Below, piece by piece: positions 818 to 25,158 of a DNA stretch of 64,000 nt (its first letter is position 1; every line of letters starts with the position of its first letter). A model generated the notes under the pieces. That model ran no database searches, had not been told where the DNA came from, and worked only from the letters and a program-made list of their open reading frames with translations. The DNA is from Eledone cirrhosa (taxonomy: Eukaryota): NCBI GenBank assembly GCA_964016885.1, contig OZ024744.1, forward strand, positions 91,264,001 through 91,328,000, given 5' to 3'. The translations under genes were made by a program, and so were the position numbers.

Positions 818-898
818 ACTCCAACTAATTAGTTTCTGTAAGGGGATAAATATGGATACGGAGCGTATCTATAGAGAAACCTTACGTCATCAGGGAGT
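818..898 (-). ncRNA. Type I hammerhead ribozyme motif with long stem II and palindromic stem III
   Basis: Minus strand: ACTCC-CTGATGA-cGTAAGG...CCTTACa-GAAAC-TAATTA-GTT-GGAGT. Stem I is ACTCC/GGAGT, the core is intact, the palindrome is AACTAATTAGTT and the triplet is GUU. The closing pair of stem II is a C.A mismatch. Confidence 0.75.
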
Positions 899-1167
899 CT
901 ATTCTCAGCTAAGCTCCCAGGCAATGCGAGGACACTGGGAACTTATATAAAAATAATTCAGTGGATGGAAAAATACAAGCGGGGCTAGATTCCAAGACAT
1001 TGAAAAATTCACTGCTTACTTGGTCAAGTGGCAAATTCAAAAGAATCAATCACGTGACACTGAGATTAATCAGCTAGGAGTGGGGGTACTATTAAGACAG
1101 AGCCTAGCCACTACTATTAATCACAGTAGTAATTTCGGCAAGTTTTACTCAACAAATAATTTGGAGA

Positions 1168-1398
1168 TAAACAATGCAAAATGGACGATAAGATGAGGTA
1201 ACGAAGAGTAAAAGTTATCTTTTAATCATGATTTGTTTTTTGTTGTTGTTGTTATTTTATTTGTCCAATATTCCAGGACCTAAAAGTCCCTTCATCAGGG
1301 TTTAAGGAACAACAACAACAAAAAAAAACCCAAAGATTACCAGGTAACTTACTTTTACTTTTTGTTACCTCATCTTACAGTCCATTTTGCATTGTTTA
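1168..1398. repeat. Imperfect fold-back inverted repeat enclosing a degenerate hammerhead
   Basis: TAAACAATGCAAAATGGAC..TAAGATGAGGTAAC..AGTAAAAGT pairs with ACTTTTACT..GTTACCTCATCTTA..GTCCATTTTGCATTGTTTA. The inner (GTT)n and (AAC)n tracts also pair. Confidence 0.8.
1265..1300 (-). ncRNA. Degenerate minimal hammerhead ribozyme
   Basis: Minus strand: CC-CTGATGA-AGGGACttttagGTCCT-GGAATATT-GG. GAAA is changed to GGAA and stem III is the palindrome AATATT. Confidence 0.5.
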
Positions 1399-1626
1399 GC
1401 CTTCTACCTCTTTCAACATTATATATATATATATATATACAATTCAATACATAAACAGAGAAAGCCTTAAGTGATACTCCGACCAACTCCATCTCACTCA
1501 ACAAACATTAGTATATACTTAAGTATTATCCCAATTTAGTGTTTGGGGTGTTAACTAATCAGTATTTCGTGGATAGCTGGTTGTATTATTTTATATGAGA
1601 CATTATTAAATAAATATCTCATTCCT

Positions 1627-1750
1627 TCCAGACGGCCGTTTCATTATAAGATTTCTACAATTTGGGATAAATAATTTCCAGATTATGTAGAAACTTGTAT
1701 ATAATCCATAGTTTTATACACAAGCGGGCTCTTATAAACTCATCAGTGGA
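1627..1750 (-). ncRNA. Type I hammerhead ribozyme with branched stem II
   Basis: Minus strand: TCCA-CTGATGA-GTTTATAAGA...TCTTATAAT-GAAAC-GGCC-GTC-TGGA. The core is complete with a GUC triplet, stem I is TCCA/TGGA and the palindrome is ACGGCCGT. Stem II holds two sub-hairpins (CTTGTGTATAA/TTATATACAAG and TTTCTACA/TGTAGAAA). Confidence 0.85.
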
Positions 1751-2089
1751 TGCCCAATTAATAACGATATAAGAATTATATCGACATTAACAGAATGGTG
1801 ATGGTCTCCCTCAGCGCTAAGAAGAGACTGGTAGATTAGAATCCAACAGTTCTCCAACAGTTCTCTCAAAGAAAAAATACACGCTGCCCCCCAAAAGGGT
1901 AAAGGGAGGTCATCTTAAAATAAAACAATATACATATATATAGTTCAAGGAGAGAACAAACAGAGGCACAAAAAGTCTTATTAGTTTCATGCTTTATATT
2001 AGAAAGAGGAAAGAATGTTCGACATGATGTTGTCCTTTATATATATACTCAAGCGAAATCAGCCATATATATATGTGTGTGTGTGTGTG

Positions 2090-2262
2090 AGGTTCCAGCT
2101 GGAAGGAGTGTTTGAGGACTCTGCCCCCCATGGCCCTCTCAGGAATAAGTGGGCAAGGAAGAAGAGGAATATGGCAAAGAAGAAGAAGAAGAAGAGGAAG
2201 AGGAGGAGGAAGAAGAAGAAGAAGAAGAAGAAGAAGAAGAAGAAGAAGAAGAAGAAGAAGAA
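2090..2262 (+). mobile_element. Probable retroelement 3' end with (AAG)n tail
   Basis: CCATGGCCCTCTCAGGAATAAGTGGGCAAGG is followed by (AAG)n. A similar motif with an AAG-rich tail occurs at about 5575-5630. Confidence 0.45.
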
Positions 2263-21353: not shown

Positions 21354-22200
21354 ATGGTGGTGGTGGTGATGGTAGTGGTGGTGATGGTGTTGATGATGGT
21401 GGTGTTGGGGGTGGTAGTGGTGGTGGTAGTGATGGAAATGGTATTGGTGGTGGCGGTAGTGTTGTTGGTGATGGTGGTGGCGATAGTGTTGTTGCTGTTG
21501 GTGATGGTGTTGGAGGTGGTTGGTGATAGTGGTGGTGGTAGTGATGGTGGTGGTCGTGATGGAAATGGTGTTGGTGGTGGCGATAGTGTTGTTGCTGTTG
21601 GTGACGGTGGTGGAGGTGGTAGTGATGGTGGTGGTCGTGATGGAAACGGTATTGGCGGTGGCGGTAGTGTTGTTGTTGGTGATGGTGGTGGCGATAGTGT
21701 TGTTGCTGTTGGTGATGGTGTTGGGGGTGGAGGTGGAGGTGGTATTGGTGTTGATGATTGTGGATGTGGTGGCGTTGGTGATGGTGGAGAAGGTGGTGGT
21801 GGTGGTGGTGGTGGTGGTGGTAGTGGTAGTGATGGTGGTGGCGATAGTGTTGTTGTTGCTGTTGGTGATGATGGTGTTGGGGGTGGAGGTGGTATTGGTG
21901 TTGATGATTGTGGTGGTGGTGGTGGTGGTGGTGGATTTGGTGATGGTATTGGTGGTGATAGTGGTGTTGTTCTTGGTGATGGTGGCGGTGTTGGTGGTGG
22001 TGGTGGTGATGATGGTGGTAGTGGTGGTGATAGCAATGGTGGTGGCAGCTGTAGCGGTGCTGTTGCTGTTGGTAATGACAGTGGTGTTGAGAGCGTTGGC
22101 GGCGGCGGTAGTGATGGTGGTGAAAGCAGTGGCGATGGTGGTGATGGTAGTGTTGAGAGTGGTGGTGGTGATAGTGACGGGGATGGTGGTGGTGGTGGTG
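21354..22200. repeat. (GGT)n-rich low-complexity tract with internal duplications
   Basis: Directly visible in the sequence. Confidence 0.93.
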
Positions 22201-22589
22201 CTTGTTGTTTGCAATAGTCTTAAATGCAGGACAGATTAGTTGGCATAGTTGTGTAGGCGTGTCTGACTTCCCTGCCCTTGTTTTGTTGTACTACTGTAGG
22301 ATTGGACACACACACACACACACACATATATACAGACACACACTCGCATACTCGAAACCCGCATTCATATGCACTCACACTCAAACACAATCGCACATAC
22401 GAAATACGCATCCAGATGCACTCACATACACAGACACACACTCTCGCATATACGAAACACCGACACACGTATACATGTTCATTCACACAGACACACATGT
22501 AATACAGATACACACATACGCATACACACACAAACATGCGTTTACATTTGCACAAACCGACGCAAACACGCTCATACACACACACACGC

Positions 22590-23780
22590 ATATGCACATA
22601 CATTCACATAAGAAGCGCAGTCACACTCGTATACACGAAACATACACACACATACGCATATGCACATACATTCACACACGAAGCGCAGTCACACTCGCAT
22701 ACACGAAACATACACACACACACACACACACACACACACACGCATATGAACATACATTCACACACGAAGCGCAGTCACACTCGTATACACGAAACGTACA
22801 CACACACAAACACACACACGCATACGAACATACATTCACATACGAAGCGCAGTCACACTCGTATACACGAAACATACACACACACACCCATAGGCACATA
22901 CATTCACACACGAAGCGCAGTCACACTCGCATACACGAAACATACACACACACACACACACACACACACGCATATGAACATACATTCACACACGAAGCGC
23001 AGTCACACTCGTATACACGAAACGTACACACACACAAACACACACACGCATACGAACATACATTCACACACGAAGCGCAGTCACACTCGTATACACGAAA
23101 CGTACACACACACAAACACACACACGCATACGAACATACATTCACATACGAAGCGCAGTCACACTCGCATACACGAAACATACACACACACGCATATGAA
23201 AATACATTCACATACGAAGCGCAGTCACACTCGCATACACGAAACATAGACACACCCACCCATACACATATGCACATACATTCACATACGAAGCGCAGTC
23301 ACACTCGCATACACGAAACATACACACACACACCCACCCACACACATATGCACATACATTCACATACGAAGCGCAGTCACACTCGCATACACGAAACATA
23401 CACACACACACACACGCATATGCACATACATTCACATATGAAGCGCAGTCACACTCGCATACACGAAACATACACACACACACACCCACACGCATATGCA
23501 CATACATTCATATACGAAGCGCAGTGACACTCGCATACACGAAACATACACATACACACACACACGCATATGAACATACATTCACATACGAAGCGCAGTC
23601 ACACTCGCATACACGAAACATACACACACACACACACACATATGAACATACATTCACATACGAAGCGCAGTCACACTCGCATACACGAAACATACACACA
23701 CACACACACACATATGAACATACATTCACATACGAAGCGCAGTCACACTCGCATACACGAAACATAGACACACACGCATA
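22590..23780. repeat. Minisatellite with a conserved core and variable (CA)n linker, about 16 copies, period 66-86 bp
   Basis: Core: CATACATTCACATACGAAGCGCAGTCACACTCGCATACACGAAACATA. Confidence 0.92.
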
Positions 23781-24573
23781 GAACGCGGTAGGCCACTCAA
23801 CGTCCACACGAAAGTGGATGTAAACATTCGCGTGCGCGCGCACATATTCTTGTAGTGTTTTGGTAGCTAAGCAAGAAATTTAGACTATACGACTATGCAA
23901 ATACTTATACACATACATAATACATACACACACACACACACACATACACACACATACATATATATATGTGTATGTGTATATGATATATATATATTTTTTA
24001 ATATATATATATATATATGTGTGTGTGTATATGATATATATATATTTTTTAATATATATATATATATATATGTGTGTGTGTATATGATATAAATATATGT
24101 TTATGTACATATATATATGTGTGTGTATATATATATATATATATATATATATGCTTGTTTGTGTGTGTGTGTATATATATATATATATATGTGTGTATAT
24201 ATATATATATATATATGTGTGTATATATATATATATATATGTGTGTGTATATATATATATATATATTTTTTTGTTTAATATAAGGAATTGTTTATTCATT
24301 ATTTGTTTAATATTTTATATATATATATATATATATATATATATATATAATAGAATGGGTGTTTAAATTACCATAGTACTTAAAATATATTCAAATGTTA
24401 AGTGAATGAGTACTCAATACGTTACACACACACACACACACACACATACACACACATACACACACACACACACACACACACACACACACACACACACACA
24501 CATACACACACACACACACACACACACACACACACACACACACACACACACACACACACACACACACATATAT

Positions 24574-24929
24574 GGAGACCCATGGCTTAGTGGTTAGAGC
24601 ATTGGCCTTGCAATCGAAAGGTTGTGAGTTCAATTCTCAGACCAGGTGATGTGTTGTTTCCTTGAGCAAGACACTTTATTTCACATTGCTCCAGTTTACT
24701 CAGCTGTAGAAATGAGATGATAGGGACTGGGTTCCCTATCATTCCACTGCAAAGTGGTGGTGGAGGTGCCACGGCTAAAAAGCACCCAGCACTCACTATA
24801 AATGAGGTTGGTGTTAGGAAGGGCATCCAGCTGTAGAAATCAAGCCAGAATCAGTTCCCACCCACCCTTGCAAGCAGGGAAAAGCGGACGCAAAATGATG
24901 ACGATGATGATGATGATGATGATGATGAT
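24574..24929 (+). mobile_element. Full-length tRNA-derived SINE with RTE-derived tail
   Basis: A-box TGGCTTAGTGG, B-box-like GAGTTCAATTC, internal hairpin TGATAGGGA/TCCCTATCA, and tail CCCACCCTTGCAAGCAGGGAAAAGCGGACG followed by (GAT)n. Confidence 0.88.
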
Positions 24930-25081
24930 TGGTGTGTATATAGTGCATGTGATCCAGTAAATTACTGGTAGTGGTACCAAAGTAAGCACTCGATACACAG
25001 GCAGAGTGTATATATTAAGGAAAACGATGAAGTTTCGTTTACATGCAGTTAGTTTATTTTTTTTATTTTGTATCAACCTGT

Positions 25082-25158
25082 TACGCGCGTTTCACAGAGG
25101 ATTGGCCCAAGGTCACAAATATGAACCCGACTCCATTATCGATCTGCTCATCAGAGTG
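25082..25158 (-). ncRNA. Type I hammerhead motif with long stem II; stem I decayed
   Basis: Minus strand: CTGATGA-GCAGA...TCTGT-GAAAC-GCGC-GTA. The palindrome is ACGCGCGT, the triplet is GUA and stem I pairing is poor. Confidence 0.6.

What the first reader, a model, noticed from the sequence alone, without database searches (positions are those of the whole stretch)
818..25158. Six hammerhead motifs from about five families in 25 kb, five on the same strand, with no Penelope ORF nearby
Seen: motifs at 818-898, 1265-1300, 1627-1750, 4467-4502 and 25082-25158 (all minus) and 14261-14298 (plus). They lie mostly in short non-coding islands between (TA)n/(CA)n tracts. Stem III palindromes differ (AACTAATTAGTT, AATATT, ACGGCCGT, ACGT, ACGCGCGT). 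I see no GIY-YIG or Penelope-type RT coding sequence. Inference: these form a diverse population of non-autonomous ribozyme-bearing elements (solo Penelope pseudo-LTRs or retrozyme-like units). The family-specific palindrome could act as a dimerisation code. If the window is an intron of a plus-strand gene, the strand bias could reflect selection against sense-strand cleavage, though six motifs is a small sample.
Basis: partly seen in the sequence, partly recalled or inferred. Interest (0 to 1): 0.75.

Follow-up and report, generated by a model that had tools for sequence, protein, structure and literature searches.

The report
Penelope retroelement ends carrying hammerheads
The six motifs are real hammerhead-ribozyme sequences, two of them with broken cores, sitting in short copies of very common repeats that were likely spread by Penelope-type jumping genes; their number and shared strand here are within what the rest of this genome shows, so this is a known and ordinary kind of feature.

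Summary
All six strings are at the stated places. Four pass a type I hammerhead descriptor (0.017 expected in shuffles); motifs 2 and 6 have broken cores. Each lies in a dispersed repeat, and for five of them most scored copies end in (TA)n/(CA)n. Motif 4 is the 3' pseudo-LTR of an RT + GIY-YIG Penelope-like element (20 of 25 endonuclease loci; one near-full-length copy). Motif 6 is an old relative. Motif 2 follows GIY-YIG-like coding in 3 of 13 loci. Motifs 1 and 3 sit in ORF-less head-to-tail units of 525 and 761 nt (retrozyme type). Motif 5 has no partner found. No Penelope ORF lies in the window. The extra ideas lack support. Sampling gave 34 motifs in 600 kb, so local density is ordinary. 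Motifs 1-3 form one nested chain. No host gene was found over the window. In 597 kb inside 23 genes, insertions were 22 antisense to 17 sense (p=0.52); intact ones 12 to 5 (p=0.14). Helix III palindromes are enriched, but 6 of 20 are shared between clusters. The scan noted this system before elsewhere in this genome. Known kind, low interest.

The parts
647..1170 (-). Family 1: one 525-nt ORF-less unit (retrozyme type / non-autonomous Penelope derivative) whose 3' end runs into (TA)n; holds motif 1 (818-898), core intact, helix III palindrome of 8 nt inside the A15.1-U16.1 pair, C-A at the base of stem II
   Evidence: 96-97% identical copies, 2323 first-look candidates; the end of a previous unit lies directly upstream in 7 of 11 other loci; longest stop-free stretch 84 aa, no Penelope protein match; compensatory changes in stems I and II among ~80% relatives
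1168..1418 (-). Family 2: short pseudo-LTR end (1168-1310) with an inverted arm (1308-1418); holds motif 2 (1265-1300), core broken (A13 to G, C11.1 to T); its last ~25 nt are replaced by the family 1 unit
   Evidence: 1703 candidates; GIY-YIG-like coding upstream in L070-L072 (Pfam PF01541 E=4e-4, 21.0 bits, under the 22.6 cut-off); RT-thumb similarity E=1.7e-4 in L070
1442..1934 (-). Family 3: 5'-truncated copy (about 490 of 761 nt) of an ORF-less head-to-tail unit, 3' end in the (TA)n at 1420-1441 that abuts family 2; holds motif 3 (1627-1750), core intact, GUC cleavage triplet, C11.1 to T
   Evidence: 96-98% identical copies, 2477 candidates; a 34-124 nt end of a previous unit lies upstream in 5 of 11 other loci; longest stop-free stretch 69 aa
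4381..4601 (-). Family 4: solo 3' pseudo-LTR of an RT + GIY-YIG Penelope-like element; holds motif 4 (4467-4502), a minimal hammerhead with two C-to-T changes in stem II; 3' end in (TA)n
   Evidence: 4237 candidates; this repeat follows the endonuclease on the same strand in 20 of 25 loci; L294 has two copies flanking a 625-aa frame with RVT_1 (E=6e-4) and GIY-YIG (E=0.013) matches
14200..14389 (+). Old relative of family 4; holds motif 6 (14261-14298), core broken (no U16.1-H17, no palindrome); ends in (CA)n
   Evidence: 164 candidates, 71-79% identity over the longer matches; aligns with family 4 across the hammerhead
24937..25165 (-). Family 5: about 230-nt old repeat (about 80% identity between copies), often with an inverted 5' arm; holds motif 5 (25082-25158), stems I and II each weakened by a change; coding partner not found
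   Evidence: 2845 candidates; inverted arm in 6 of 13 other loci; no same-strand tandem copy in those 13
9513..9605 (+). 3'-end fragment of a further coding Penelope family, without its hammerhead
   Evidence: 91% over 94 nt to the end of the pseudo-LTR that follows the L025-type endonuclease
15029..15062 (+). Second 3'-end fragment of that family, without its hammerhead, followed by (TA)n
   Evidence: 97% over 34 nt

Best explanation
The six motifs are type I hammerhead sequences inside five unrelated, dispersed repeat families that likely entered this DNA by Penelope-type reverse transcription primed at (TA)n tracts. Shown: families 4 and 2 follow Penelope coding sequence elsewhere in the genome (family 4 firmly, family 2 on weaker protein evidence), motif 6 is an old relative of family 4, and families 1 and 3 are ORF-less head-to-tail units. 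Inferred from published Penelope biochemistry: the RT-endonuclease nicks AT-rich DNA and starts copying at a fixed internal site downstream of the hammerhead. It usually stops early or flips, which leaves a short copy with the ribozyme, a fixed 3' end on (TA)n, a variable 5' end and often an inverted arm. Families 1 and 3 would borrow that enzyme; their partner is unidentified. In the source RNA two tandem hammerheads would pair through the palindromic helix III and cut out a unit-length RNA. The single copies here lack a same-family partner on the same strand and are predicted to be mostly silent relics. New insertions land in the (TA)n ends of older ones, which likely explains the chain of motifs 1-3 and most of the local clustering and strand agreement.
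For: Family 4 follows the endonuclease in 20 of 25 loci (19 of 24 without the locus that supplied the query). L294 has the pLTR-ORF-pLTR layout. Family 2 is preceded by GIY-YIG-like coding in 3 of 13 loci. A TA/CA run follows the end motif in 9 of 10, 9 of 9, 15 of 18, 6 of 7 and 5 of 7 loci where the end motif was found (families 1, 3, 4, 5, 2; found in 10 of 11, 9 of 11, 18 of 19, 7 of 13, 7 of 13). Partial tandems include 34-44 nt 'tails', and inverted arms occur, as described in PMC8557442 and PMC11167929. Family 1 relatives show compensatory stem changes. Background is 34 descriptor hits (21 events) in 60 stretches of 10 kb, about 1e5 per genome. Events including decayed copies: 43 in 600 kb, 1.8 per 25 kb; P(>=5)=0.06 before allowing for nesting and post-hoc choice; 5 seen against 4.6 expected in the 64-kb window.
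Against: No RNA data could be laid, so transcription, cleavage and circles are untested. No coding partner was found for families 1, 3 and 5. The family 2 endonuclease match is under Pfam's cut-off. From 60 kb before the window to position 25 kb, 8 of 9 motif-bearing copies are on the minus strand (p=0.04; 6 of 7, p=0.125, with the chain counted once), and the edges of that interval were chosen after looking. Intact motifs inside genes lean antisense (12 to 5).
Confidence: 0.88

Rival explanations
1. Same origin, but host selection removes copies whose intact hammerhead lies on the sense strand of a transcript, so the minus-strand excess marks an unseen plus-strand transcription unit over this stretch.
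For: Intact events inside myosin and kinesin genes: 12 antisense, 5 sense, 4 both; decayed events 11 antisense, 12 sense, 3 both. Local run of 8 of 9 copies on the minus strand.
Against: Neither split is significant (p=0.14; Fisher p=0.20). All events together give 22 to 17, p=0.52. 10 of 21 intact events hold at least one intact sense-strand motif, among them a sense-strand tandem pair in a myosin gene. No host exon was found over the window. The nearest gene found is leucyl-tRNA synthetase on the minus strand, starting 70.7 kb before the window and reading away from it. Single minimal hammerheads did not cleave in vitro (PMC4209133).
Confidence: 0.2
2. The helix III palindrome is a selected family code that stops hammerheads of different elements from pairing.
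For: A descriptor blind to helix III content gave 36 palindromic of 51 hits against 0 of 7 in shuffles (21 of the 36 come from tandem arrays of one family). A 75%-identical relative of family 3 swaps CGGCCG for CAATTG, four changes that keep the palindrome. Predicted self-pairing is -9 to -14 kcal/mol for families 1, 3 and 5, against -4.5 or weaker for mixed pairs.
Against: 6 of 20 palindromes occur in two to five of 30 sequence clusters. Families 2 and 4 have 4-nt palindromes with no predicted preference for self. One coding family has a non-palindromic helix III. Pairing in cis between tandem copies needs self-complementarity only, so variety follows from drift and discrimination is a by-product.
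Confidence: 0.1
3. The motifs are chance look-alikes in AT-rich repeat DNA.
For: Rfam found none. Two of six cores are broken. Minimum-energy folds of the single copies do not show the open core.
Against: 4 hits against 0.017 expected. Family copies keep the intact core. Stems covary. The family 4 motif sits in a Penelope pseudo-LTR.
Confidence: 0.02

Closest known systems
Minimal type I hammerheads in pseudo-LTRs of metazoan Penelope-like elements (Cervera and de la Pena 2014, PMC4209133; parts 1-2 of 4 read)
   Same: Short helix I, extra nucleotide after A9, tiny palindromic helix III, many families per genome, most copies single and away from any ORF, inverted pairs; family 4 flanks an RT + GIY-YIG frame.
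   Different: Families 1, 3 and 5 have long stem II extensions (50-97 nt). The sampled density (about 1e5 per genome) is above the 2,000-9,000 given there, but descriptors differ.
Metazoan non-LTR retrozymes (Cervera and de la Pena 2020, PMC7229834, passages read; Li, Clavereau and Pollet 2026, 10.64898/2026.07.22.740005, parts 1-3 of 5 read)
   Same: ORF-less head-to-tail units with a type I hammerhead, many monomer copies, proposed dependence on Penelope enzymes.
   Different: Units of 525 and 761 nt are longer than the ~300 nt typical but within the 51-972 nt range of Li et al. The copies here are monomers. Circular RNA is untested. Li et al. tested depletion from introns; no test of orientation appears in the parts read.
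EN+ Penelope-like elements of Neptune/Nematis type (Craig et al. 2021, PMC8557442, passages read; mechanism in Frangieh et al. 2024, PMC11167929, parts 1-2 of 4 read)
   Same: [quoted passage not shown] (TA)n targets, 30-40 nt tails, partial tandems and inverted 5' copies match.
   Different: Clade not fixed by a tree here. All copies in the window are non-coding ends.

Membership tests
Type I hammerhead ribozyme | Core CUGANGA, GAAA, UH around three stems | tested here: met
   Met for motifs 1, 3, 4, 5 and for the intact copies of family 2
Type I hammerhead ribozyme | Intact core in the window copies of motifs 2 and 6 | tested here: not met
   A13 changed in motif 2; U16.1-H17 missing in motif 6
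Type I hammerhead ribozyme | Covarying stems | tested here: met
   Family 1 relatives show paired changes in stems I and II; one family 3 relative shows a palindrome swap; not seen or not assessable in families 2, 4, 5
Type I hammerhead ribozyme | Self-cleavage of the RNA | not testable with these tools
   Needs in vitro transcription or end-mapping RNA data
Penelope-like element pseudo-LTR (family 4, motif 6) | Direct repeat flanking an RT + C-terminal GIY-YIG frame | tested here: met
   L294; 20 of 25 endonuclease loci; motif 6 by alignment only
Penelope-like element pseudo-LTR (family 2) | Follows an RT + GIY-YIG frame | tested here: inconclusive
   GIY-YIG E=4e-4, under cut-off; RT-thumb E=1.7e-4; 3 of 13 loci; no full-length copy seen
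Penelope-like element pseudo-LTR (families 1, 3) | Follows an RT + GIY-YIG frame | tested here: not met
   Upstream sequence is the end of the previous unit; no Penelope protein match in the units
Penelope-type insertion | Fixed 3' end at a microsatellite, variable or inverted 5' end, short tail | tested here: met
Metazoan non-LTR retrozyme (families 1, 3) | Non-coding head-to-tail unit with a type I hammerhead | tested here: met
   525 and 761 nt units, longest stop-free stretches 84 and 69 aa; two intact tandem motifs in L191, an ~80% relative of family 1
Metazoan non-LTR retrozyme (families 1, 3) | Expressed as unit-length linear and circular RNA | not testable with these tools
   No RNA run was available to lay
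Metazoan non-LTR retrozyme (family 5) | Head-to-tail tandem copies | tested here: inconclusive
   None in 13 loci of 3.2 kb; inverted arms in 6 of 13

The most novel reading that the evidence does not exclude
Across this genome, intact hammerheads (about 1e5) cut nascent host transcripts often enough that selection removes them from the sense strand of introns, while decayed copies lie in either direction. Strand asymmetry of intact against decayed copies would then be a genome-wide readout that these weak ribozymes cleave in vivo, something not yet shown for Penelope hammerheads in the papers read. The 12 to 5 (intact) against 11 to 12 (decayed) split points that way but is not significant.
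Probability: 0.2. Interest if true: 0.6.

Novelty: new member of a known kind. Interest (0 to 1): 0.2.

Why it matters
As it stands it matters little. It adds cephalopod families to a system described in 2014-2026, and it shows that clusters of hammerheads in this genome should be read as Penelope debris. What remains of value is a cheap test. With gene annotation, the roughly 100,000 motifs of this genome allow a well-powered comparison of intact and decayed copies by intron strand. That bears on an open question, whether Penelope hammerheads cut RNA in living cells (PMC11167929 found no reads ending at the cut site).

Tried and rejected
Rfam scan: no hammerhead family at E<=1; the hits were microRNA models on microsatellites and hairpins. 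RNA: no RNA holder listed for window 660-1930, so no reads were laid; this says nothing on expression. A Pfam accession recalled for the Penelope thumb domain is not in the library. Endonuclease searches with two other Penelope families showed that their pseudo-LTRs are none of the five window families; family 1 and 3 copies near them are neighbours, not their ends. Host gene: 49 of 53 unmasked frames of 62 aa or more in 264 kb were scanned with Pfam. Only the tRNA-synthetase exon was followed to a gene. Two other weak matches (E 0.016 and 0.029) were not followed. A peptide 27 kb before the window found no relatives. Short exons and non-coding genes would be missed. Strand agreement of neighbouring insertions in the sampled stretches: 6 same, 8 opposite. 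Controls inside genes: LINE/SINE 3' tails 41 to 40, a SINE body motif 47 to 40, RTE coding 9 to 11. The intron sample stopped at 597 kb, of which 90 kb are kinesin genes, so the orientation test is under-powered. The atlas look-up for the family 2 endonuclease gave no result. Lunse, Weinberg and Breaker (PMC5785218) is not held: only its title was seen, in a reference list, so whether it tested mixed dimers is unknown. Supplements were not read. One literature search for intron orientation of hammerheads listed 4 papers, none on the topic by title or abstract start; this is not exhaustive. Look-ups of earlier findings near the window and by sequence gave nothing.
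Full report
Setting. The window is C28:91,264,001-91,328,000 of a 3.0-Gb assembly. The nearest gene found matches an Octopus bimaculoides leucyl-tRNA synthetase at 76-88% over five of six exon-sized hits, so the animal is likely an octopod (inference). 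About 87% of the window is repeat.

Observation. All six strings exist. Motifs 1, 3, 4 and 5 pass a type I descriptor: 4 hits in 25.2 kb against 0.017 in 300 shuffles. A stricter version passed two. The descriptor was shaped on these motifs, but it also gave 34 hits in 600 kb of other DNA against 0-1 per shuffle. Motif 2 has a mutated A13, and motif 6 has lost the cleavage triplet. Motifs 3, 4 and 5 have C-to-T changes at the base of stem II.

Every motif is part of a dispersed repeat. Genome searches gave 2323, 1703, 2477, 4237, 2845 and 164 first-look candidates for the stretches around motifs 1, 2, 3, 4, 5 and 6 (40 scored each, not copy numbers). Copies end at a fixed 3' point followed by a TA or CA run in 44 of the 51 loci where the end motif was found, out of 67 examined. 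5' ends vary or fold back. These are the marks described for Penelope-like elements (PMC8557442, passages; PMC11167929, parts 1-2 of 4).

Links to coding elements. A GIY-YIG-like frame beside one family 4 copy was used to search the genome (14,176 candidates, 150 scored, best 25 fetched). Family 4 follows it on the same strand in 20 of 25 loci. L294 holds two family 4 copies around a 625-aa frame with RT and GIY-YIG matches and a CX4CxxC linker, so Neptune or Nematis type by the description in PMC8557442; no tree was built. Motif 6 aligns with family 4 across the ribozyme. Family 2 is preceded by a GIY-YIG-like frame in 3 of 13 loci (Pfam E=4e-4, under cut-off). In families 1 and 3 the upstream sequence is the end of the previous unit (7 of 11 and 5 of 11 loci), and the 525 and 761 nt units have no long frame. 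They fit the non-LTR retrozyme definition in sequence (PMC7229834, passages; preprint 10.64898/2026.07.22.740005, parts 1-3 of 5). Family 5 has no partner found. Three Penelope proteins of this genome find nothing in the window; the nearest hit is 78 kb beyond its end. Two hammerhead-less Penelope end fragments lie on the plus strand at 9513 and 15029.

Clustering. Motifs 1-3 are one chain: family 3 ends in the (TA)n that abuts the inverted arm of family 2, and family 1 replaces the last bases of family 2. Sixty evenly spaced 10-kb stretches (20 of them on C28, so not a random sample) held 34 descriptor hits in 21 events, about 1e5 events per genome, and 43 events when decayed copies are included. 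Five events in 25 kb has P=0.06 by resampling, before allowing for nesting, for the interval being chosen afterwards, and for the library holding the window's own families. The whole window has 5 against 4.6 expected, and the 264 kb around it 12 against 18.9.

Strand. 5:1 gives p=0.22; 3:1 gives p=0.63. Extending 100 kb upstream adds three minus and one plus copy; the most favourable interval gives 8:1 (p=0.04) or 6:1 (p=0.125). No gene was found over the window; leucyl-tRNA synthetase starts 70.7 kb before it on the minus strand and reads away. To test the idea directly I took 597 kb between collinear exons of 17 myosin and 6 kinesin genes. Of 47 insertion events, 22 were antisense, 17 sense and 8 both (p=0.52). 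Intact events: 12, 5 and 4 (p=0.14, 95% interval 44-90% antisense, which corrects two events mislabelled as decayed). Decayed events, by subtraction: 11, 12 and 3 (Fisher p=0.20). Raw motifs were 22 to 11, inflated by one six-copy array. Ten of 21 intact events include an intact sense-strand motif. Ribozyme-free controls were even. There is no support for a strong bias; a moderate one in intact copies stays open.

Palindromes. A descriptor blind to helix III gave 36 palindromic of 51 hits against 0 of 7 in shuffles (21 of the 36 are tandem copies of one family). A family 3 relative swaps four bases and stays palindromic. This is the published dimer model (PMC4209133, parts 1-2 of 4; PMC6765202, passages). 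As a code it is leaky: 199 hits in all DNA held (which includes loci fetched for these families, some twice) fall into 30 clusters with 20 palindromes, 6 of them shared. The 4-nt palindromes of families 2 and 4 show no predicted preference for self.

Mechanism, with basis. Shown: family membership, ends, tandem and inverted layouts, coding links for families 4 and 2. From literature: nicking of AT-rich DNA, internal start of reverse transcription, protein-assisted and dimer-dependent cleavage. Inferred: that families 1, 3 and 5 use Penelope enzymes, that tandem source RNAs self-cleave and may circularise, and that the single copies here are silent.

Verdict. Real motifs, known system, ordinary density. 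Earlier notes of this scan describe the same system at other places in this genome; they are unchecked and were not used as evidence. New members of a known kind; interest 0.2.

Noticed in passing
window 34989-60560: 25.6-kb satellite of 74-bp units, about 340 copies, 94% matches
   Followed up: no
window 30125-33971: Array of 26-bp units that switches strand at about 32816 (about 104 copies, then 44 inverted)
   Followed up: no
window 6370-9400, minus: Broken non-LTR retrotransposon with RVT_1 and zf-RVT matches; Dong/R4 type by recalled motifs, not tested
   Followed up: partly
window 15700-17900, plus: Broken LINE with an RVT_1 match; RTE type by recalled motifs, not tested
   Followed up: partly
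window 14818-14970: Near-perfect long hairpin ending in (TA)n, no hammerhead core; possibly a fold-back element end or MITE
   Followed up: no
L080-L082 (70.7-90.9 kb before the window), minus: First coding exons of cytoplasmic leucyl-tRNA synthetase
   Followed up: yes
L120:281-3381, L156:4974-5594, L268: Tandem arrays of a 310-nt hammerhead unit (11, 3 and 6 copies); the L268 array lies antisense inside a myosin gene with one inverted copy
   Followed up: no
L270:5231-6088: Two intact tandem hammerheads 467 nt apart on the sense strand inside a myosin gene, plus one inverted copy
   Followed up: partly
L217-L221, downstream of the endonuclease frame: An abundant coding Penelope family (37,016 first-look candidates) whose hammerhead has a non-palindromic helix III; the palindrome descriptor misses it, so densities are a floor
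   Followed up: partly
window 25150-25170 and L046-L058: Family 5 copies share a fixed 5' start at a T-rich tract about 15 nt before the core, unlike the variable 5' ends of the other families; unexplained
   Followed up: no
L294:4665-5172: A family 3 copy is inserted, inverted, just after the upstream family 4 pseudo-LTR of the near-full-length element: another case of nesting at (TA)n ends
   Followed up: partly
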